Below are positions 2,933-16,364 of a DNA stretch of 21,903 nucleotides, one piece after another (position 1 is the first letter of the stretch; the number at the start of each line of letters is the position of its first letter). The translations under genes and the position numbers were made by a program. The notes beneath the pieces are model-generated. The model was given only the letters and a program-made list of their open reading frames with translations, searched no databases and had not been told where the DNA came from. The stretch lies in the UHGV virus genome UHGV-0149790. One strand, 5' to 3'. Source of the stretch: a virus.

Positions 2933-3379
2933 TTAAACGCTGGTCAGGCGCTGTGTTTCTCGCATAGCTTGCAATGCTCTGGCGACTTGCTGCGGCCCGT
3001 CTCTGGCGTCGAGTAACAACGCGATAATCGCCGCGGCAAACTCGCGAATGGCCACACAAATTAAATACTGAGTGGACATACCCAAGCGCGCGTAACGTTC
3101 TGCCGGCAGCGCCGCTTCCATCGCTTTGACCAGCGCCAGAGTTTTGGCTCTCGCGGCTTTGGTCTCGCCTCGCAACCAACGAAAAATTTGTTGGCGGTTG
3201 TTGTTGATTGCCCGCCAGTCGGCGTTTCCATCTGCATCTTCGATCTGGTGCAGCTTCAGCGAACCGGTATTACCACCAAGACGAAACCACATGCGGCTTA
3301 TCTCGATAGCAACCAGCTCCTGCCCGCTTTCCGCTGCCCAGTTAAAGATCTCTCGTTTAAGTTCTTCGAGGTATTCCAC
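2933..3379 (-). CDS. CII-position regulatory protein, possibly YdaT-family
   Basis: 148-aa helical ORF directly downstream of the Cro-like gene; GTG start at 3379 with AGGAGA 9 nt upstream. Family assignment is from recalled similarity only. Confidence 0.5.
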   Translation of the reverse strand: MEYLEELKREIFNWAAESGQELVAIEISRMWFRLGGNTGSLKLHQIEDADGNADWRAINNNRQQIFRWLRGETKAARAKTLALVKAMEAALPAERYARLGMSTQYLICVAIREFAAAIIALLLDARDGPQQVARALQAMRETQRLTSV

Positions 3380-3441: not shown

Positions 3442-3636
3442 TTAAGCTGATTTGGCTGGCAGTTGGTAAGCCTTTGGGTCATAAACAAGTTCGCCATCAG
3501 TCATCAGAGACAAACGAGCCGCTTTACCTTCAGGAACCAAACGCCCCCACGCATAGACAGTAGGAGCCTTAACGCCAGCGGCCTCAGCCAGTTTTCTCTT
3601 ACTACCAAAATATTTGATCGCATCAGTTGTTAACAT
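3442..3636 (-). CDS. Cro-like HTH regulator (DicC/YdaS type)
   Basis: 64-aa ORF (YFGSKRKLAEAAGV...LVPEGKAARL...GELVYDPKAY) divergent from the repressor gene; AGGAGG RBS; promoter and operators immediately upstream. Confidence 0.75.
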   Translation of the reverse strand: MLTTDAIKYFGSKRKLAEAAGVKAPTVYAWGRLVPEGKAARLSLMTDGELVYDPKAYQLPAKSA

Positions 3637-4597: not shown

Positions 4598-4921
4598 ATG
4601 GAAGCGCTTACCATCCCCGTAACTATTTACGTTATGGCCACAACCAACCCATATCTACCAACGTCTTATCACTCATTCACCTGTGACATGTCACAGCAAT
4701 ACCCTGATCTGTATGTCCTCGTTACTACCAAAACGGTAGAGGTTGCCATTCCAGCTTTAGAGCCAATCGACATTATTGGTATGCAGGTTAATGCCCTTCG
4801 TGCGAAGAAAGAGAAAATCTCTGCCGAAGCAAAGAAGGAGCTGGGTGTTATTGAAGACCAGATTCAGCAGCTGCTGTGCATCGATCACTCTCCAATTGAA
4901 GAAAGCGACGTACCGTTTTAA
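4598..4921 (+). CDS. hypothetical protein, first gene of the left operon
   Basis: 107-aa ORF with AAGGAG RBS 6 nt upstream; acidic and not arginine-rich, so not N-like. Confidence 0.6.
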   Translation: MEALTIPVTIYVMATTNPYLPTSYHSFTCDMSQQYPDLYVLVTTKTVEVAIPALEPIDIIGMQVNALRAKKEKISAEAKKELGVIEDQIQQLLCIDHSPIEESDVPF

Positions 4922-4965: not shown

Positions 4966-7164
4966 ATGACCATCTACAACGGCTCATTTGAGCCAAAGAA
5001 ATCGGCGATTAAAGACTGCGGCGCCGTGCAGCTGGCGATCGCCATCGATGCGCCAAACAAAAAAGTGGCCGAAAGCATTATGACCGGCAAACTCTGGGAA
5101 TCATACCCGGCCAATGGTGACAACTATTTCAAACCGAAACTGTGGGAACACGTTGAAGGCCAGCCGCTGCCGACCGTTGGCCAGTTCGATGAGTCATTCG
5201 CCCAGCAGCATACTTTTGACGGTGAAAAATGGGTTTCTACTGCGCAGGATAGCGCTTCCGGAAGTGGTGCAGGTTTACCTGCCGACGATGAAGTGATCGA
5301 CCTGATGACCGTTTCCCCTGATGAACGCTTTGCTGCCGTCCTGCTTTTTAGTACCGCGGCGATTGATGGCCATCTTTATTCTCAGGTTGTGGATTATCTG
5401 GATAATCTGAAAAACCACGATGGGGAATTTGAAGAGGAAGATCGCTTTAACTTTAATGTTCTGTGTGCCCTGCAAAATAACTTCCCGGTTCAAAGCATGC
5501 ATGTGGAAGGTCTGAACAATCTTATTCAGGGTATTTTCTCCCACTTTGAAAACCAGACGCCGGGCAAAGCGGCTATCTCTCAGTTCGTTAAACGCTGGCT
5601 TGAGAATCCGGGCAAGCGCGACGAACTGGCCCCCGGCGTATATAAAAATACCGCTCTCAGCACCAGCACCAGCACCAGCACCAGCACCAGCACCAGCACC
5701 AGCACCAGCACCAGCACCGATGATAAAACACCCGTGGTAATTTCTAAGCGCGGATATAAACACACTTATGCAACGCTGGATCAGGAGATCGCTACCGCCC
5801 TTCTCCCGCTGGCGCCTGATGCGCCGGTACTATCCGGAAACCTTCTGGACGCTAAGAAGATGATTTCCGATGACCGGGAAGATTTTAAACGCTGGTCAGC
5901 ATCGCTGCACACCACGCCGCAGATACTCAAATACGACCGCGCCAGCATCTTCGGCGTGGTACAAAACGTACCGGCGAAAGATACCTACCATTTCCCTGAC
6001 AGCCTGCGCCGCCATATCGATTCATGGCTGGCGGCCAACGGCCGCTTTGAGGAAACCGAGACAGGATCCGTTAAACAACCAGAGGCGACGCAAAATACCG
6101 CCTCAAACGTGGGCGAAAAAGTGGAAGCGCAGCAGCCGGTTGTAACCGACACCCAGGCCAAACAGGCGCGTGAGACGCTCAATGATATGGGTTATGGCGT
6201 ATATGCCTCTGGTGAAGGTGCAGAGCCGGAAGAGAAGTTAAGCGTTAAGGCTGAAAAACTGGCTGATGATTCCGAGCGTTTAGCAAAACAAATCGCTCAC
6301 GCTGAAAGCCTGCCTAACGCTGAGGATGTTGTGCAGGCTGTCGGAAAACCAATCATCGGGGAAGACAATTTAGACCTCTGGAAACGCGTATTTAAAACCG
6401 ACGAAAGGTTTACTAAGGCTTTCACACAGAACGGCGGTGGCACCTCGATCAACGGTACCTACATGACCATGCTTGCCACACGTGAGTTTGGCCCTAAGGG
6501 CATCGGCTGGGGCGTGGATATTGTTGAAGAGCGTTTCGATATTGGCGCGCCGATCACTCGGCAAGTAAAAGGCAAAGACAACAACGCATCGTGGGAGCTG
6601 GTTCTTGATGGGAATGGTAATACCGTCAACGAACAGCACCATGTTGTGACTGTCCGGCTCTGGTACATCCTGAACGGAGTACGAGGTGAGGAAACAGCAT
6701 ACGGCTGTACACCCTACATTTACGGTAGTAAATACGGGATCACCTGCGACGGCGAAGCAGCCAAAAAATCACTGACAGATGCGACCAAAAAAGCGTTATC
6801 CGGCCTCGGATTCAGTGGCGATATCTTTATGGGGCTTTACGACAATCTGGAGTACCGCCAGAAGAACAAGGCCGAGTTTGACCTGAAGAACGCCAGCGAA
6901 TCAGCCGAAGATGCAGCACGGCTCCGCCAGGAGTTTGACGATAAATTAAGCCGCGTTGCTAATACCCTGGCGCATGGCGTGACGGTGAACGAAATCAACG
7001 GTGTGTTTTCCCCTATCGCACGTGAGATCGATGTTCACATTAAAGCCGCCCAGGCCAACGGCGACACGCAGCATGAACGTTATCTGTCTGGCCGGCTCCG
7101 CCGACTCATCTCCATCAAAGATGGGCGCATTAAAGAACTGAATAAAGCCGAGGAGAAAGCATAA
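4966..7164 (+). CDS. large recombination protein: N-terminal region of unknown function, (Ser-Thr)10 linker, C-terminal Rad52-like single-strand annealing domain
   Basis: ATG at 4966 preceded by GAGGAAAGACCA; C-terminal motif GCTPYIYGSKYGITCDGEAAKKSLTDATKKALSGLGFSGDIFMGLYD matches the Rad52/Sak signature (K-x-A-V-T-D-x-x-K-R-A-L-x-x-F-G); 733 aa from this start. Confidence 0.7.
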   Translation: MTIYNGSFEPKKSAIKDCGAVQLAIAIDAPNKKVAESIMTGKLWESYPANGDNYFKPKLWEHVEGQPLPTVGQFDESFAQQHTFDGEKWVSTAQDSASGSGAGLPADDEVIDLMTVSPDERFAAVLLFSTAAIDGHLYSQVVDYLDNLKNHDGEFEEEDRFNFNVLCALQNNFPVQSMHVEGLNNLIQGIFSHFENQTPGKAAISQFVKRWLENPGKRDELAPGVYKNTALSTSTSTSTSTSTSTSTSTSTDDKTPVVISKRGYKHTYATLDQEIATALLPLAPDAPVLSGNLLDAKKMISDDREDFKRWSASLHTTPQILKYDRASIFGVVQNVPAKDTYHFPDSLRRHIDSWLAANGRFEETETGSVKQPEATQNTASNVGEKVEAQQPVVTDTQAKQARETLNDMGYGVYASGEGAEPEEKLSVKAEKLADDSERLAKQIAHAESLPNAEDVVQAVGKPIIGEDNLDLWKRVFKTDERFTKAFTQNGGGTSINGTYMTMLATREFGPKGIGWGVDIVEERFDIGAPITRQVKGKDNNASWELVLDGNGNTVNEQHHVVTVRLWYILNGVRGEETAYGCTPYIYGSKYGITCDGEAAKKSLTDATKKALSGLGFSGDIFMGLYDNLEYRQKNKAEFDLKNASESAEDAARLRQEFDDKLSRVANTLAHGVTVNEINGVFSPIAREIDVHIKAAQANGDTQHERYLSGRLRRLISIKDGRIKELNKAEEKA
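5659..5718. repeat. perfect hexanucleotide tandem repeat (AGCACC)x10 encoding (Ser-Thr)10
   Basis: Ten uninterrupted AGCACC units read directly in the sequence, in frame within the 4966..7164 CDS. Confidence 0.95.
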
Positions 7165-7730
7165 TGACTTCCACCACTGCAATTGCTATCGCAGCCGATA
7201 TGTCAAAACTCCAGGCACTACTGGAAAACGAAGACGGTGCTGGTCTGTCTCCTGAAATGATCGCCGACACAATGGAAGGTCTTGAGTTACAACTCGGCGA
7301 TAAACTGGATGCCGTTTTCGTCCACGTTCGCAATCTGGAAGGCCTGGCAAAAACCTGCGATGAAGAGGCCAAACGCCTTGCCGCCCGCAAAAAATCATTC
7401 GAAGGTAAGATCACGAACCTGAAGAAATATGTTCTCCAGTGTCTACTGGCCGCCGGTCAGGATACGGTTAAAACCGCCAAAAATACCTTTACCGCACGTA
7501 AGGGAGCTATAAACGTCGTGATCGATAATGATGAATTACTGCCGGATGAATTAGTGACAGTTCAGACGTTAGTCACTCCGGACAAGAAAGCCATCAAGGA
7601 AGCGATTGAATCAGCACAGGCAGCGGCGGCCCAGATTACCGCTGACGGCGGAGAGATACCGGAAGAACTGTTAAACCCAGTGCCGGGCGCTCACCTTGAG
7701 ATTGGCGAACGTTCGCTGCAGGTGCGCTGA
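7164..7730 (+). CDS. Gam-like / Gp157-family protein (candidate DNA-end-binding accessory)
   Basis: 188 aa; start overlaps the upstream stop (TAATG); N-terminal coiled-coil plus a C-terminal pattern resembling Mu Gam; family call from recall, moderate confidence. Confidence 0.5.
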   Translation: MTSTTAIAIAADMSKLQALLENEDGAGLSPEMIADTMEGLELQLGDKLDAVFVHVRNLEGLAKTCDEEAKRLAARKKSFEGKITNLKKYVLQCLLAAGQDTVKTAKNTFTARKGAINVVIDNDELLPDELVTVQTLVTPDKKAIKEAIESAQAAAAQITADGGEIPEELLNPVPGAHLEIGERSLQVR

Positions 7731-11000: not shown

Positions 11001-11270
11001 CTATATTTGGAGTTTTCTTTTAAGTGATTCCTCTGCCTCTTCAAGAGGGCTTCCTGACCCAGAATACACAAAAGAATGGGTAAGCTCCCCACAGGAAAGA
11101 CAACCATCAATGCTAACTTTAAATGAAACAGTCGCTGTTCCATTATTTAGCGATATTAACGATACAGCCTGGTATTCAACTTCAATCGATGTATCTTCTG
11201 ATGGCATCCATACACCTAGCGTTGGATATGCTATAGATTTTCCTATGGTCTGCGTCACTCTGAAAGTCAT
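11001..11270 (-). CDS. hypothetical protein in an AT-rich island between tailspike and holin
   Basis: ATG at 11270 with GAGG 5 nt upstream, overlapping the tailspike stop; 89 aa, beta-rich; a plus-strand ORF (10993..11283) covers the same DNA, so strand is uncertain. Confidence 0.35.
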   Translation of the reverse strand: MTFRVTQTIGKSIAYPTLGVWMPSEDTSIEVEYQAVSLISLNNGTATVSFKVSIDGCLSCGELTHSFVYSGSGSPLEEAEESLKRKLQI

Positions 11271-11277
11271 ATTAGCC

Positions 11278-13797
11278 TCATGAATTAAAAGGAACAACAT
11301 AATCAAAAGTACACTGGAGAGTAAAATCAAAAGTACCAGCTGCTTGAGAATATATTTCTTGGGCTGACGATTTTATAATCGTCATTTGATTTGTCCCTGC
11401 AGGAACAAGCGGCATAACAAAAACTCCTGTAGCCGTGCTTAGAATTATGCTTCCTTTAGACCCACCCTCCTGTATTGAGGCGGCTGTAAAAGGAAGACCA
11501 CTAATGACTATGGCTCCCGCAGTACTAACCAGTAAAGAGGTTGATCTGACTCTTATATCGCAACGAACAACATCACCAAACCTACGGTAAATTCCAGTAA
11601 TGGATGATGGCGTTACGCTTGCCCCGCCAATTGTAATAGTTGGTGTGAATGAGCCATAAAGATACTTAAACTGAGCAGCATTACCACCGGGAAAAGCTAT
11701 TGGCGGCATATAGGCATCATTTCGATTAAAAACATACTTATCGGATAAATTTGTTCCGTTTAACTCCTGAAGACCGAAAAGACGATAGTTTGAATTATCT
11801 CCAAGCTTTCTTTGAGCAACTATATTCTCACCGGCACCGATTCTTGTGCCGTTAAATTCATTAACTGGGGCAGCCTGAACCGCGCCACCTTTTACAATAT
11901 CAAGGGCGAAAATATTTCCTCTTGTTGCCATCGCTGGAAATGTTGAAAGAGATGGTTCGTAGGGATCAACATTATTAACATTAAATCTATTTCCAGCAAC
12001 ATCACCAAGGCCATACTTGATGATTCCTACCCTTTCCAGTATAAGAGTCCTTATTTTACTGTTACCAACATATGATTTAAATCCGTCAACGAATTGAGCA
12101 GAGTGGTAGAATGGCGTTCTTGGAGACCACAGCACTTTAGCCTCACCAATATTGCAATGCAATATCTCCCTTCCCGGAAGTGAAATAATAGTTCTTGCGC
12201 GCCCAGCTATACCTCTATAGGTATCAACTGGGTAAACCCCATTCTGCTGATTATTTGACAACCGACCACCGCTGGCCGTAGGCAAGCAGTTTGCAGACTT
12301 GAAAACATACGTATCAAACCAAGTGTCAAGAGCGGCATATGCTGGATGTGTCCAGTCCATGCCGGTATCACCATAATAATGAAACTTGTCTACATGGTAC
12401 GAATCATTCCATCCCGCCCGATGAATATCTGATGCCGGGTACGGCGGAAGGTACTGAGACGCGTATGCATGATTTCTCGTTAGCCAGCGCCCGCCAAAAA
12501 CAGGGCCTGTAATATTATACCAATATAATGTCAGCCCAGTTTGCGCCAGAGAATCAGATCCTTGATAACAAGCAGGAATGGCACACCCTGAGTACATCAT
12601 ATTATTTTCTACACAGCGGTTTACAGTCCCGTCTACCCATTGCCCAATAAAGAATCCGCTAATCCTGAAATCAGAAAGGTGATACTTTATGTATTGATCT
12701 GGTCCGCTGTCACCTGCGATGTATAGACCCATGGAAGATGTATGATCCCATGGTCCCGCAGTTTTTGAAAAATTACCAATAATCCCACAATTGTGTTGGT
12801 TTTCACCAACAATCATTGAATCATCATAAACACGCAGTGCTGCTTTTGCCTTAACTGGTATTTCAGGAGCAATATTTGAATCACCGTTCCCTATCCACCC
12901 TGGGTATACAGTCCCATCGTCGAATGGCAAATTAAACTCTATCGGTGAAGATATGCACGGATACATTTTAGTTAAATATACCGGAAGGTTATTAGCTTTT
13001 CCGTAATCTATAGCTGCCTGTAGAAATTTAGTTGCATCAGCAGTGATGCCGTGAATATATCTTTCACCATTAATCCTTATCATTTCAGGGGTTACGTATT
13101 TTATTGCATCTTCAACGGTGCCTCCAGTAAGAACCCCTATATGCCCGCTACCTGTCGGTTTGGCATACTCAATCATTACATCTGCTGCACTTCCACTCGA
13201 AGGCAATACCATCAATGGATTGCCATTATTATCCATTGCAACGATTTTATTTTTTCGTTCTGCAATGGAAGGTAACGGTGTGATGCTAGACTCCGGAACG
13301 CGTAGAGTACGAGCTAGATTAATTTTTCCATTTTCAATTACAAATTTTTTAGTAGCTGCATCCTGATCGTTAACTGGATCGGCCAGATTTGCTATCCGGT
13401 AGCCGTTAGCGTTGAAAGGTCCACCGCCGAACAGCGGGCGACTTAGGGCCACTCCGAGATAAATAAACGCGCGCTGAGTAGCCATCCAGAGACGGTCAAA
13501 ATCTTTGTTAACTGTATCGGCCAGCAGGTCGCCGTTGTCCTGGTAATCAGTGAGCCTGTAAGTCGGCGTTACACGTTCAAAAATGACTGTAGCGCCATTG
13601 GCCGGCGCGGTCAGAAAAGTAACTTCGCCACCGCCAGTATTACCCACACCAGACACTGTATAGCCGGACGTTACTTCGTTGCCGTTGATTGTGACCTGAA
13701 TATCGCTGGCGCTGATCAGGTAAAACTCATAGGCAAAGACAGTCGTCAGCCCGTTGGCGGTATAGATGTTATAGGGTGTCTGGTTCGGTACCGACAT
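11278..13797 (-). CDS. tailspike / tail fibre with T7 gp17-like N-terminal adaptor domain and probable beta-helix depolymerase body
   Basis: 839 aa; N-terminal approx. 150 aa (...NANGYRIANLADPVNDQDAATKKFV) parallel recalled T7 gp17 (...RGRRIVNLANAVDDRDAVPFGQL); Gly/Asn/Ser/Thr-rich repetitive body typical of polysaccharide depolymerases. Confidence 0.8.
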   Translation of the reverse strand: MSVPNQTPYNIYTANGLTTVFAYEFYLISASDIQVTINGNEVTSGYTVSGVGNTGGGEVTFLTAPANGATVIFERVTPTYRLTDYQDNGDLLADTVNKDFDRLWMATQRAFIYLGVALSRPLFGGGPFNANGYRIANLADPVNDQDAATKKFVIENGKINLARTLRVPESSITPLPSIAERKNKIVAMDNNGNPLMVLPSSGSAADVMIEYAKPTGSGHIGVLTGGTVEDAIKYVTPEMIRINGERYIHGITADATKFLQAAIDYGKANNLPVYLTKMYPCISSPIEFNLPFDDGTVYPGWIGNGDSNIAPEIPVKAKAALRVYDDSMIVGENQHNCGIIGNFSKTAGPWDHTSSMGLYIAGDSGPDQYIKYHLSDFRISGFFIGQWVDGTVNRCVENNMMYSGCAIPACYQGSDSLAQTGLTLYWYNITGPVFGGRWLTRNHAYASQYLPPYPASDIHRAGWNDSYHVDKFHYYGDTGMDWTHPAYAALDTWFDTYVFKSANCLPTASGGRLSNNQQNGVYPVDTYRGIAGRARTIISLPGREILHCNIGEAKVLWSPRTPFYHSAQFVDGFKSYVGNSKIRTLILERVGIIKYGLGDVAGNRFNVNNVDPYEPSLSTFPAMATRGNIFALDIVKGGAVQAAPVNEFNGTRIGAGENIVAQRKLGDNSNYRLFGLQELNGTNLSDKYVFNRNDAYMPPIAFPGGNAAQFKYLYGSFTPTITIGGASVTPSSITGIYRRFGDVVRCDIRVRSTSLLVSTAGAIVISGLPFTAASIQEGGSKGSIILSTATGVFVMPLVPAGTNQMTIIKSSAQEIYSQAAGTFDFTLQCTFDYVVPFNS

Positions 13798-15845: not shown

Positions 15846-16364
15846 ATGAAGATATTAATTCCATTGTTGCTAATCTTTCACTTTGCAGCATTCGCATCAA
15901 CCGATTTAGTTGATGACTCTAAATATATCGTTCCTATATCCGGACCAGGAATACAGATTACCAATCCATATACCGACTATACGGTCATTAACGGTATCGA
16001 CACTGGTAAAAAAATTGAGATCCATGTATCGGTATTACACTTGCGAACCTATAAAGAAAACGCAGATTTTAGTGAAACTAATACTCACTATGTGGAAGGA
16101 AGTAAAACCATATCTAGTTACAATGCCAATGTTTACACAGACGATTTTATAAAATTTACATCAGAAGACGCTAAAAATTCAACATTGAAAAATTTAAGGG
16201 ATTTGTATTGTGCACCAGATGGATTTTACCCAGTGTCATCTCAAGAGCGGCTATTCTACGAAACCCGAAAAGAAAATAAAAAAATAATGATCAATTACTA
16301 CAGTGATTCAGGGAAAACCCTCATGTTTGGGTTTGGGGTTTCCCCCGAATCATGTAAGTCGTAA
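15846..16364 (+). CDS. secreted or periplasmic protein of unknown function encoded by an AT-rich moron, opposite in orientation to the late operon
   Basis: 172 aa; AAGGAG RBS 9 nt upstream; signal peptide MKILIPLLLIFHFAAFAS; markedly AT-rich, wedged between two minus-strand late genes. Confidence 0.7.
   Translation: MKILIPLLLIFHFAAFASTDLVDDSKYIVPISGPGIQITNPYTDYTVINGIDTGKKIEIHVSVLHLRTYKENADFSETNTHYVEGSKTISSYNANVYTDDFIKFTSEDAKNSTLKNLRDLYCAPDGFYPVSSQERLFYETRKENKKIMINYYSDSGKTLMFGFGVSPESCKS

What the first reader, a model, noticed from the sequence alone, without database searches (positions are those of the whole stretch)
4966..7164. Unusually large single-strand annealing protein: Rad52-like domain fused to about 480 aa of unknown function
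Phage Rad52-type annealing proteins are typically 200-250 aa. Here the recognisable domain (about residues 490-660, motif AAKKSLTDATKKALSGLGFSG) sits at the C-terminal end of a 733-aa protein whose N-terminal two thirds match nothing I recognise, joined through a (Ser-Thr)10 linker. The N-terminal part may be a fused partner such as an exonuclease substitute or anti-nuclease. It is followed by a Gam/Gp157-like gene, forming a compact recombination module.
Basis: partly seen in the sequence, partly recalled or inferred. Interest (0 to 1): 0.55.

Follow-up and report, generated by a model that had tools for sequence, protein, structure and literature searches.

The report
Rad52-type annealase carrying RecE's N-terminal module
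This temperate-phage gene encodes a DNA strand-annealing protein of the human RAD52 type that carries the same uncharacterised N-terminal module found on the RecE exonuclease, so databases wrongly label it an exonuclease and it gives a new way to study what that module does.

Summary
The ORF is real: 4966..7164 (+), 732 aa, good Shine-Dalgarno, over 1,200 homologues, mostly in Klebsiella prophages.

- **C-terminal part (residues ~466-634 plus a helical tail to 732).** It has a Rad52 fold. The AlphaFold model has pLDDT 92.5, and the six best PDB matches are all the human RAD52 N-terminal domain (E ~1e-6; next hit E 0.04). 24 of 36 family members hit Pfam Rad52_Rad22. RAD52 groove residues K152/R153 align with K608/K609.
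- **N-terminal ~365 residues.** They are not unmatched. They are the YdfE_N/YdfE_C module, homologous to the non-nuclease N-terminal region of RecE (NCBIfam ExoVIII E 8e-13; E. coli YdfE E 7e-12). Its function is unknown and it matches no solved fold.
- **Relatives.** The same module sits in front of PDDEXK nucleases (followed by RecT) or DEDD exonucleases.
- **(Ser-Thr)10 tract.** It is a perfect, copy-number-variable hexanucleotide microsatellite between YdfE_N and YdfE_C, not the junction with the Rad52 domain.
- **Gp157.** A Sipho_Gp157 gene follows in every fused and enterobacterial-type stand-alone locus examined.
- **Nuclease.** No nuclease domain was found, so the "exonuclease" and "endonuclease" annotations are probably wrong.

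Verdict: a new architectural variant of a known SSAP kind, of moderate interest.

The parts
4966..7164 (+). Whole gene: 732-aa protein with YdfE_N, YdfE_C and a Rad52-like domain
   Evidence: ORF list. The start has AGAGGA 8 nt upstream. Full-length match to phrog_2489. 1,218 homologues, the close ones carrying precomputed PF27430.
4966..5637 (+). Residues 1-224: YdfE_N-like acidic domain, made of a small alpha/beta sub-domain (1-93) and a helical sub-domain (103-224)
5638..5739 (+). Residues 225-258: disordered linker containing (Ser-Thr)10, encoded by the perfect (CAGCAC)x10.2 microsatellite at nt 5658-5718
   Evidence: pLDDT is below 50. TRF reports 100% matches. Relatives at >=92% identity carry (ST)2, 4 or 5.
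5740..6057 (+). Residues 259-364: YdfE_C-like helical domain, the most widely conserved part of the N-terminal region and shared with RecE-type proteins
   Evidence: AF2 pLDDT is about 90. NCBIfam ExoVIII positions 56-381 match residues 52-378. phrog_2082 and phrog_607 hit this region. Many representative hits cover only about residues 250-365.
6058..6360 (+). Residues 365-465: acidic, mostly disordered tether with one predicted helix (395-407); this is the real junction to the SSAP domain
   Evidence: pLDDT is about 30-60. 20% of residues are acidic.
6361..6867 (+). Residues 466-634: Rad52-fold single-strand annealing core, including the motif at 598-618 and K608/K609
   Evidence: AF2 pLDDT is 92.5. 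The six top Foldseek hits are the human RAD52 NTD, E 1e-6 to 4e-6. PF04098 is hit by 24 of 36 family members. hhalign to RAD52 is collinear over 127 columns, E 1.4e-3.
6868..7161 (+). Residues 635-732: three long helices forming a C-terminal tail, also present in stand-alone homologues; a candidate partner-binding region
   Evidence: DSSP on the model shows H169-210, H215-238 and H242-272 in fragment numbering. Alignment A1 shows the tail in stand-alone homologues.
7164..7730 (+). Sipho_Gp157 family gene, translationally coupled to the fusion gene (TAATG overlap)
   Evidence: Pfam PF05565 E 8e-35. phrog_253. Overlap and Shine-Dalgarno. It is the conserved downstream neighbour, at 44-47% identity to the window protein or its near-identical BUCT708 copy in the two diverged loci compared by BLAST (L007, L008).
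4598..4921 (+). Upstream 107-aa ORF (phrog_2479, unknown function). A 99-113-aa ORF occupies this position in related loci, but its sequence is not conserved
   Evidence: Positional equivalents appear. BLAST finds no similarity to the L007 and L008 equivalents.

Best explanation
The gene encodes the single-strand annealing protein (SSAP) of a temperate phage's early-left recombination module.

**C-terminal third (shown).** Residues about 466-634 adopt the Rad52 N-terminal-domain fold.

**C-terminal third (inferred).** By analogy with RAD52 and Sak, this domain is inferred to assemble into rings. The rings would bind ssDNA in a basic groove that includes K608/K609, which align with RAD52 K152/R153, and anneal complementary strands. 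A three-helix tail follows and is also present in stand-alone homologues.

**N-terminal half (shown).** It is the YdfE_N/YdfE_C module, homologous to the N-terminal, non-nuclease region of RecE (ExoVIII). It is attached through about 100 disordered acidic residues. Relatives carry the same module in front of PDDEXK nucleases (with RecT next door) or DEDD 3'-5' exonucleases. Closely related Rad52-like domains also occur without it.

**N-terminal half (inferred).** The module is therefore best read as a portable, non-catalytic accessory domain. The role proposed here is protein docking: the consistently acidic YdfE_N would bring whichever recombination enzyme it is fused to onto a common host or phage target at DNA ends or forks.

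**Partner.** The obligate-looking partner is the translationally coupled Gp157 protein. No phage exonuclease is annotated in the closest complete phage. End resection is therefore inferred to come from host nucleases or from an unrecognised activity.

**ST tract.** It is a slippage-prone in-frame microsatellite that only changes the length of a disordered linker.
For: **Rad52 fold**
- The AF2 model of residues 460-732 has pLDDT 92.5.
- The Foldseek PDB top six hits are all the human RAD52 NTD, with probability 1.00, E 1.1e-6 to 3.7e-6 and about 180 aligned columns. The next hit has E 0.04.
- PF04098 is hit by 24 of 36 members of the C-terminal family, best E 1.9e-6. The window protein itself scores E 0.059, on the helix motif.
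- hhalign of the family profile against verified human RAD52 is collinear over 127 columns, E 1.4e-3.
- K152/R153 align with K608/K609. Their role in DNA binding and annealing is described in PMC6137706.

**N-terminal module**
- NCBIfam ExoVIII positions 56-381 of 877 match residues 52-378, E 8e-13.
- PF27430 is precomputed on all 120 close homologues.
- BLASTP to the K-12 ydfE remnant gives E 7e-12.

**Modularity**
- The representative search found 143 clusters.
- At least 22 of them are full-length Rad52-type fusions.
- Among the 59 long non-Rad52 members, Pfam finds DUF3799 PDDEXK in 13 and Rv2179c-like DEDD in 12, both C-terminal.
- P0258 (YdfE_N/C plus DUF3799) is followed by RecT.

**Gp157 partnership**
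- Gp157 is the immediate downstream gene in the window, BUCT708, P0239, P0351 and P0297, and for the stand-alone proteins P0129 and P0137.
- The genes are translationally coupled.

**Other points**
- No exonuclease or SSB is annotated in the 44-kb relative BUCT708.
- YdfE_N is acidic across the family.
- The ST tract varies in copy number among close relatives.
Against: - The window protein itself does not reach Pfam's Rad52_Rad22 gathering score: 13.7 against 20.3 bits.
- A family profile finds no PDB sequence.
- TM-scores to RAD52 are only about 0.5 normalised to the target.
- RAD52 R156 and R55 are not matched by basic residues in the hhalign alignment: S612 and F486.
- No annealing, ring formation or DNA binding has been measured.
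- The role proposed for the YdfE module is inference. It rests on domain architecture, charge and the absence of any fold match.
- 'No phage exonuclease' rests on annotation of a relative. The window itself covers only about half of the phage.
Confidence: 0.7

Rival explanations
1. The protein is an exonuclease or endonuclease, as PHROG ('exonuclease'), NCBI ('exonuclease family protein', 'putative exodeoxyribonuclease VIII') and PGAP ('phage-associated endonuclease') call it.
For: - phrog_2489 is labelled 'exonuclease' and matches full length.
- Source names appear, and the PGAP name.
- There is real homology to RecE, E 8e-13.
Against: - The RecE homology covers only model positions 56-381 of 877, which is the non-nuclease N-terminal region. 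The score is 47 bits against a cut-off of 1269.
- The review PMC11611040 places the RecE nuclease domain at residues 564-866.
- There is no DUF3799/PDDEXK, DEDD or other nuclease Pfam hit at E<=0.1.
- Residues 460-732 have a Rad52 fold.
Confidence: 0.04
2. The Rad52-fold domain acts mainly in DNA-end binding and protection rather than annealing. This would resemble what is described for Deinococcus DdrA, a Rad52-family protein (from my own knowledge). Together with Gp157, it would shield linear phage DNA ends from RecBCD.
For: - The domain has a Rad52 fold.
- It is constantly paired with Gp157, which PHROGs labels 'Mu Gam-like end protection'.
- No exonuclease is annotated in the closest complete phage, BUCT708.
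- One of the three RAD52 groove basic residues (R156) and the gate residue R55 are not conserved.
Against: - The gene occupies the exo-bet-gam position of a lambdoid early-left operon.
- Stand-alone homologues in F116 sit with a DEDD exonuclease, SSB and RdgC, a typical recombination module.
- K152/R153 equivalents are kept, and K609 is invariant in the family.
- The Gam label for Gp157 is not backed by a Pfam Mu-Gam hit.
Confidence: 0.12
3. The YdfE module is an anti-host-nuclease or anti-defence effector, for example an acidic DNA mimic that blocks RecBCD or a restriction or defence system. It would travel with recombination enzymes rather than act as a docking or scaffolding adaptor.
For: - Domain A carries a conserved strong negative charge.
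- The module has no catalytic fold.
- It is optional for the Rad52-like family.
- No separate Gam of the lambda type was seen in the operon.
Against: - There is no similarity to any known anti-nuclease or anti-defence protein in the PDB or PADLOC searches.
- Covalent tethering to an oligomeric enzyme is not needed for an inhibitor.
[quoted passage not shown] That fits a role in the recombination reaction itself better.
Confidence: 0.15
4. The long ORF is an artefact: an accidental fusion of two genes by frameshift or assembly error, or a decaying pseudogene.
For: - Stand-alone versions of the C-terminal half exist.
- The microsatellite could in principle mediate rearrangements.
- The E. coli K-12 ydfE copy is a pseudogene.
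Against: - At least 22 clusters at 50% identity keep the same intact architecture at 667-814 aa.
- N-terminal identity in these clusters falls as low as 24-31%. They occur in many genomes and in an isolated phage.
- The microsatellite unit is 6 nt, so slippage stays in frame.
- Both halves give confident AF2 models.
Confidence: 0.02

Closest known systems
Human RAD52 N-terminal domain and phage Sak (lactococcal phage ul36), the Rad52/Sak SSAP family (PF04098)
   Same: - Same fold.
- Collinear motifs, TSINGTYM..ATE.FGP.G.GWG and E..KKSLTDA.KKALS.LG.
- The K152/R153 equivalents are kept.
- It occupies a phage recombination-module position, as described for Sak in PMC2896510.
   Different: - It is only marginally detectable by the Pfam model: 13.7 bits against a 20.3-bit cut-off.
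- It has an insertion of about 15-20 residues in the sheet relative to Pseudomonas homologues.
- R156 and R55 are not conserved.
- It carries a 465-residue N-terminal extension that I did not find described for Sak or RAD52 in the papers read.
RecE / exodeoxyribonuclease VIII of the Rac prophage, with RecT
   Same: - It shares the N-terminal YdfE_N/YdfE_C-type region, whose function in RecE is unknown.
- Same operon position and same overall layout: a long N-terminal module, a disordered linker, then a C-terminal DNA-processing domain.
   Different: - The C-terminal domain is a Rad52-fold annealase, not the PDDEXK nuclease.
- The partner gene is Gp157, not RecT.
- The extreme N-terminus differs from the PF06630-type head of many RecE-like proteins.
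Pseudomonas phage F116 gp19, Vibrio phage VvAW1 gp29 and Yersinia prophage 273-aa proteins (stand-alone members of the same Rad52-like family; phrog_7838)
   Same: - 39-55% identity over the Rad52-like domain and helical tail.
- The Yersinia and metagenomic members are also followed by Gp157.
   Different: - They have no YdfE module.
- In F116 and VvAW1 the next gene is a DUF1351 protein, followed by a DEDD exonuclease. F116 also has SSB and RdgC.
E. coli K-12 YdfE (Qin prophage) and full-length YdfE_N/YdfE_C proteins with a DEDD exonuclease (e.g. P0244)
   Same: - Homologous N-terminal module.
- Same early-left operon location, downstream of dicB/kil-type genes.
   Different: - K-12 ydfE is a remnant truncated by IS2E.
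- Intact relatives end in an Rv2179c-like 3'-5' exonuclease instead of a Rad52-like domain.
Lambda Red (Exo-Beta-Gam) and P22 Erf/Abc recombination modules
   Same: A compact recombination cassette between the immunity region and xis-int, with an SSAP of the Rad52 superfamily in the sense of PMC2896510.
   Different: - No recognisable Exo or YqaJ partner, and no lambda-Gam or Abc homologue.
- The SSAP itself carries the large accessory module.

Membership tests
Rad52/Sak single-strand annealing proteins (Pfam PF04098 Rad52_Rad22) | Sequence match to the family model at or above the curated score | tested here: inconclusive
   The window protein scores 13.7 bits, E 0.059, against a cut-off of 20.3. 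The match is on the helix motif only. 24 of 36 members of its C-terminal family match at E<=1, best 1.9e-6.
Rad52/Sak single-strand annealing proteins (Pfam PF04098 Rad52_Rad22) | Rad52 N-terminal-domain fold: a beta-sheet with hairpin packed on the long DNA-binding helix | tested here: met
   The AF2 model has pLDDT 92.5. The Foldseek top six hits are all the human RAD52 NTD, probability 1.00, E about 1e-6, TM(target) about 0.5. The next hit is E 0.04. This is a predicted structure, not an experimental one.
Rad52/Sak single-strand annealing proteins (Pfam PF04098 Rad52_Rad22) | Basic residues of the inner ssDNA-binding groove (RAD52 K152, R153, R156; gate R55) | tested here: inconclusive
   K152 and R153 align with K608 and K609, and K609 is invariant in the family. 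R156 aligns with S612 and R55 with F486. The residue roles are from PMC6137706.
Rad52/Sak single-strand annealing proteins (Pfam PF04098 Rad52_Rad22) | Ring oligomer and ATP-independent annealing of complementary ssDNA | not testable with these tools
   This needs purified protein, EM or mass photometry, and annealing assays.
RecE / exodeoxyribonuclease VIII (NCBIfam NF007259; PDDEXK nuclease) | C-terminal PDDEXK nuclease domain (Pfam DUF3799-type; RecE residues 564-866) | tested here: not met
   No DUF3799 or other nuclease hit at E<=0.1. The C-terminal third has a Rad52 fold. The location of the RecE nuclease domain is from PMC11611040.
RecE / exodeoxyribonuclease VIII (NCBIfam NF007259; PDDEXK nuclease) | Full-length equivalog score | tested here: not met
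   47.4 bits against a cut-off of 1269. Only model positions 56-381 are matched.
YdfE_N / YdfE_C module (Pfam PF27430, PF27432) | Homology to the YdfE/RecE N-terminal region | tested here: met
   PF27430 is precomputed on all 120 close homologues, which are 84-97% identical. Diverged fusions carry PF27430 and PF27432. BLASTP to the K-12 YdfE remnant gives E 7e-12. The models themselves are not in the local Pfam copy, so the window protein was not scored directly.
Sipho_Gp157 (PF05565), downstream gene | Match above the curated score | tested here: met
   120.7 bits against a cut-off of 28.6, E 8e-35.
Mu Gam / host-nuclease inhibitor Gam, downstream gene | Match to a Gam family model or a Ku-like fold | tested here: not met
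   No Phage_Mu_Gam hit at E<=0.1. No PDB sequence match. Only the PHROG label 'Mu Gam-like end protection'.

The most novel reading that the evidence does not exclude
The YdfE/RecE N-terminal region would be a portable targeting or scaffolding module that phages attach to either half of a two-component recombinase. In RecE-type systems it sits on the nuclease. Here it sits on the annealase.

The Rad52-like protein and Gp157 would together form a self-sufficient recombination system without a phage exonuclease. In that system the module, and/or Gp157, would recruit host resection or the replication machinery.

If this is right, the annealase fusion is a natural separation-of-function experiment. 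It would make the long-unknown role of RecE's N-terminal 560 residues directly testable.
Probability: 0.3. Interest if true: 0.65.

Novelty: new variant of a known kind. Interest (0 to 1): 0.5.

Why it matters
1. **Annotation.** Over a thousand Klebsiella and other enterobacterial prophage proteins, and the stand-alone family that includes F116 gp19, are labelled exonuclease or endonuclease. The evidence here says they are Rad52-type annealases. That label comes from homology to the non-catalytic part of RecE.
2. **RecE biology.** The N-terminal two thirds of RecE have no known function, although full-length RecE behaves differently in linear-linear recombineering. Finding the same module on an annealase, and on DEDD exonucleases, narrows its role to something independent of the catalytic domain. 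It also offers simple swap and deletion experiments.
3. **Tools.** A Klebsiella-native SSAP plus Gp157 pair is a candidate recombineering system for Klebsiella and related hosts.

Tried and rejected
- **PDB sequence searches.** Single-sequence and profile searches found nothing useful for the whole protein, the C-terminal family or the N-terminal alignment.
- **PADLOC.** The defence-system models gave no hit for the fusion, Gp157 or the flanking small ORFs.
- **Weak Pfam MACPF hit.** The hit at E 0.043 over residues 228-336 spans the low-complexity ST linker, so I dismissed it.
- **Internal start codon.** GTG at nt 6331 with GAGGA 4 nt upstream would produce a stand-alone 277-aa annealase. It is weakened in BUCT708 and absent in two diverged fusions, so I rejected it as a conserved feature.
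- **My own PDDEXK census.** The iterated-profile census was contaminated by shared linker regions. I rely on the Pfam census instead.
- **C-terminal clustering.** Clustering the last 200-320 residues did not separate the architectures, because short proteins still include YdfE_C.
- **Literature searches.** Two searches were lost because 'RecE' matched 'receptor'. No paper was found on YdfE function, on Gp157 function, or on Rad52-like SSAPs fused to a RecE N-terminal module.
- **Iyer, Koonin and Aravind 2002.** This SSAP classification paper is not held in the library.
Full report
**1. The observation**

The window is part of a temperate phage or prophage. It encodes:
- DnaB-type helicase, YdaT-like, Cro-like and CI-like proteins on one side;
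- xis (DUF4224) and a tyrosine integrase on the other side;
- then lysis genes, a T7-type tail-fibre N-terminus, terminase and an SLT internal-virion protein.

Between the CI-like gene and xis lies the ORF in question, 4966..7164 on the + strand. It has 732 codons, and AGAGGA sits 8 nt before the ATG.

A (Ser-Thr)10 run is at residues 232-251. It is encoded by a perfect (CAGCAC)x10.2 hexanucleotide repeat at nt 5658-5718.

The next gene, 7164..7730, overlaps the stop codon (TAATG) and has its own GAGGAG. It belongs to Pfam Sipho_Gp157 (E 8e-35).

The protein has 1,218 detectable homologues. The closest, at 84-97% identity, are almost all from Klebsiella. The closest isolated phage is vB_SmeS_BUCT708, at 78.5% amino-acid identity with identical gene order. 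The ORF is therefore real.

**2. The C-terminal third has a Rad52 fold**

A search with residues 460-732 found stand-alone proteins of about 185-275 aa. These include Pseudomonas phage F116 gp19, Vibrio phage VvAW1, and Yersinia and Pseudomonas prophages. I aligned 36 of them as alignment A1. Four lines of evidence agree:

- **Pfam.** 24 of the 36 hit Rad52_Rad22 (PF04098) at E<=1, best 1.9e-6. The window protein scores only 13.7 bits (E 0.059), below the 20.3-bit cut-off.
- **Profile comparison.** hhalign of the A1 profile against human RAD52 1-211 gives a collinear 127-column alignment, E 1.4e-3. The alignment pairs TSINGTYM..ATE.FGP.GIGWG with [22 protein letters not shown], and EAAKKSLTDATKKALSGLG with [20 protein letters not shown].
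- **Structure prediction.** AlphaFold2 with A1 gives pLDDT 92.5.
- **Fold search.** Foldseek against the PDB returns the human RAD52 N-terminal domain as the six best hits: E 1.1e-6 to 3.7e-6, probability 1.00, about 180 aligned columns. The seventh hit is at E 0.04.

In the hhalign alignment, RAD52 K152/R153 correspond to K608/K609. These residues contact the ssDNA backbone, and their mutation impairs annealing (PMC6137706). K609 is invariant in the family. R156 and R55 align with S612 and F486.

After the core come three long helices, residues about 628-731. Stand-alone homologues have them too.

The core is about residues 466-634 rather than 490-660.

**3. The N-terminal part is the YdfE/RecE N-terminal module**

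- NCBIfam's exodeoxyribonuclease VIII model matches residues 52-378 to model positions 56-381 of 877. The E-value is 8e-13, but the score is 47 bits against a cut-off of 1269.
- The RecE nuclease domain is at residues 564-866, and the N-terminal domain has unknown function (review PMC11611040). The homology is therefore to the non-catalytic part of RecE.
- All close homologues carry a precomputed Pfam hit, PF27430. Context look-ups name it YdfE_N, and name PF27432 YdfE_C.
- Residues 10-276 align with the E. coli K-12 ydfE product, E 7e-12. That gene is a Qin-prophage pseudogene cut by IS2E.
- I found no functional study of YdfE.

AlphaFold2 of residues 1-420, with a 52-sequence alignment, has mean pLDDT 75. 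It shows:

| Residues | Prediction |
|---|---|
| 1-93 | small alpha/beta sub-domain |
| 103-224 | helical sub-domain |
| 225-258 | disordered stretch that contains the ST tract |
| 259-364 | confident helical domain |
| 365 onward | disorder, with one helix at 395-407 |

Residues 1-224 are consistently acidic, with net charge -5 to -25 in nearly all homologues. This argues against direct DNA binding.

**4. The module is shared by proteins with different C-terminal enzymes**

An exhaustive HMMER search with residues 1-459, against one representative per 50%-identity cluster, found 143 clusters.

- With the A1 profile, at least 22 clusters are full-length Rad52-type fusions of 667-814 aa. Their identity to the query in the N-terminal region ranges from 60% down to 24%, and three of the four whose loci I examined are at 24-31%.
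- Among the 59 other long proteins, Pfam finds DUF3799 (PDDEXK nuclease) in 13, Rv2179c-like DEDD 3'-5' exonuclease in 12, and PF06630 'Exonuc_VIII' in 30.
- Per-protein scans show that PF06630 models the N-terminal head of RecE-like proteins, not the nuclease. DUF3799 and Rv2179c-like are C-terminal.
- Examples: P0258 matches query residues 24-397 and has DUF3799 at 716-893. P0244 matches query residues 10-397 and has Rv2179c-like at 642-813.
- One protein, P0323, has a partial RecT hit. I did not follow it up.

**5. Gene context**

| Protein type | Downstream or neighbouring genes |
|---|---|
| Rad52-type fusions (window, BUCT708, P0239, P0351, P0297) | Sipho_Gp157 immediately downstream, usually with overlapping stop and start; Gp157 proteins 44-47% identical to the window protein or its BUCT708 copy in L007 and L008 |
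| Stand-alone Rad52-like proteins (Yersinia, one metagenomic phage) | also Gp157; no YdfE module nearby |
| Stand-alone proteins in F116 and VvAW1 | DUF1351 protein, then a DEDD exonuclease; F116 also has SSB and RdgC |
| PDDEXK-type relative P0258 | RecT |
| DEDD-type relative P0244 | sits downstream of dicB, as K-12 ydfE does |

The closest complete phage has no annotated exonuclease or SSB.

The small ORF upstream of the fusion is conserved in position but not in sequence.

**6. The ST tract**

Relatives at >=92% identity carry (ST)2, (ST)4 or (ST)5 where the window has (ST)10. This accounts exactly for length differences such as 732 against 722 aa. More distant homologues have no such run.

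It is an in-frame, slippage-prone microsatellite inside a disordered linker between YdfE_N and YdfE_C. It is not the junction with the Rad52-like domain.

**7. Most likely mechanism**

*Shown:*
- a Rad52-fold domain with the conserved helix motif;
- a RecE/YdfE-type N-terminal module with no catalytic fold;
- long disordered tethers;
- coupling to Gp157.

*Inferred:*
- The C-terminal domain forms rings that bind and anneal ssDNA, as RAD52 and Sak do.
- The YdfE module is a non-catalytic accessory. It can be attached to a nuclease, as in RecE, or to an annealase, as here. It is dispensable for the Rad52-like family as such.
- It therefore probably mediates docking to a common host or phage partner at DNA ends or forks, or scaffolds two ends.
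- Resection is supplied by the host or by an unrecognised activity.

The rivals are set out in the Rival explanations section: a true nuclease; DdrA-like end protection; an acidic anti-nuclease or anti-defence effector; an artefactual fusion.

**8. Comparison with known systems and novelty**

It works like a Sak/RAD52-type SSAP and shares architecture with RecE. It is not a member of the ExoVIII nuclease family, because the nuclease domain was tested for and is absent.

The protein family is already in databases (phrog_2489, PF27430/PF27432). It is named 'exonuclease', 'exonuclease family protein', 'putative exodeoxyribonuclease VIII' or 'phage-associated endonuclease'. The stand-alone family, phrog_7838 including F116 gp19, is also called 'exonuclease'. 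These names appear to be propagated from the RecE N-terminal homology.

I found no paper describing a Rad52-like SSAP fused to the RecE/YdfE N-terminal module. This is an absence in the held library only.

I class it as a new architectural variant of a known kind, with interest 0.5.

Noticed in passing
window 5658-5718: A perfect (CAGCAC)x10.2 coding microsatellite. Near-identical Klebsiella relatives carry 2, 4 or 5 Ser-Thr units, so the linker length changes by in-frame slippage.
   Followed up: yes
phrog_2489 and phrog_7838; L002 3983-4738 (F116 gp19); E. coli hit H43: Both the fused family and the stand-alone Rad52-like family are annotated 'exonuclease' or 'phage-associated endonuclease'. 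No nuclease domain was found in the fused window protein. The labels probably derive from homology to the non-catalytic N-terminus of RecE.
   Followed up: partly
L012 4079-4999 (E. coli K-12 ydfE, b1577): K-12 ydfE is the N-terminal remnant, truncated by IS2E, of one of these modular proteins. Intact relatives such as P0244, downstream of dicB, end in an Rv2179c-like DEDD exonuclease.
   Followed up: partly
P0323 (756 aa): A YdfE-module protein with a partial RecT match at residues 562-610. It may be a second kind of SSAP fusion, or a gene-call artefact.
   Followed up: no
window 11001-13000 (inside ORF 11278-13797, - strand): G+C drops to 0.41-0.44, against about 0.50-0.55 elsewhere. This is within the tail-fibre gene, which has a T7 tail-fibre N-terminal domain. 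It suggests a horizontally exchanged receptor-binding part.
   Followed up: no
window 15846-16364 (+): A 172-aa ORF on the opposite strand, between the terminase-like gene and large virion genes that all run on the - strand. It has no Pfam hit and may be a moron.
   Followed up: no
L001 / L004 (OM816834.1, phage vB_SmeS_BUCT708): This phage is recorded as a Stenotrophomonas phage. It nevertheless shares gene order and 78-97% protein identity with this Klebsiella-type prophage region, and one of its notes cites a locus tag (HMPREF0484) that I believe from memory is Klebsiella. The host assignment may deserve a check. It also carries an RloB/ATP-binding gene pair near its right end.
   Followed up: no
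window 6322-6333: An in-frame GTG (V456) lies 4 nt after GAGGA, at the position where stand-alone homologues begin. This could be an internal start, but it is not conserved in diverged fusions.
   Followed up: yes
window 2933-3379 (-) and 3442-3636 (-): A YdaT_toxin-family ORF lies directly downstream of the P22_Cro/YdaS-like gene. The same pairing recurs in all related loci examined (L007, L008 and the P0239 locus).
   Followed up: no
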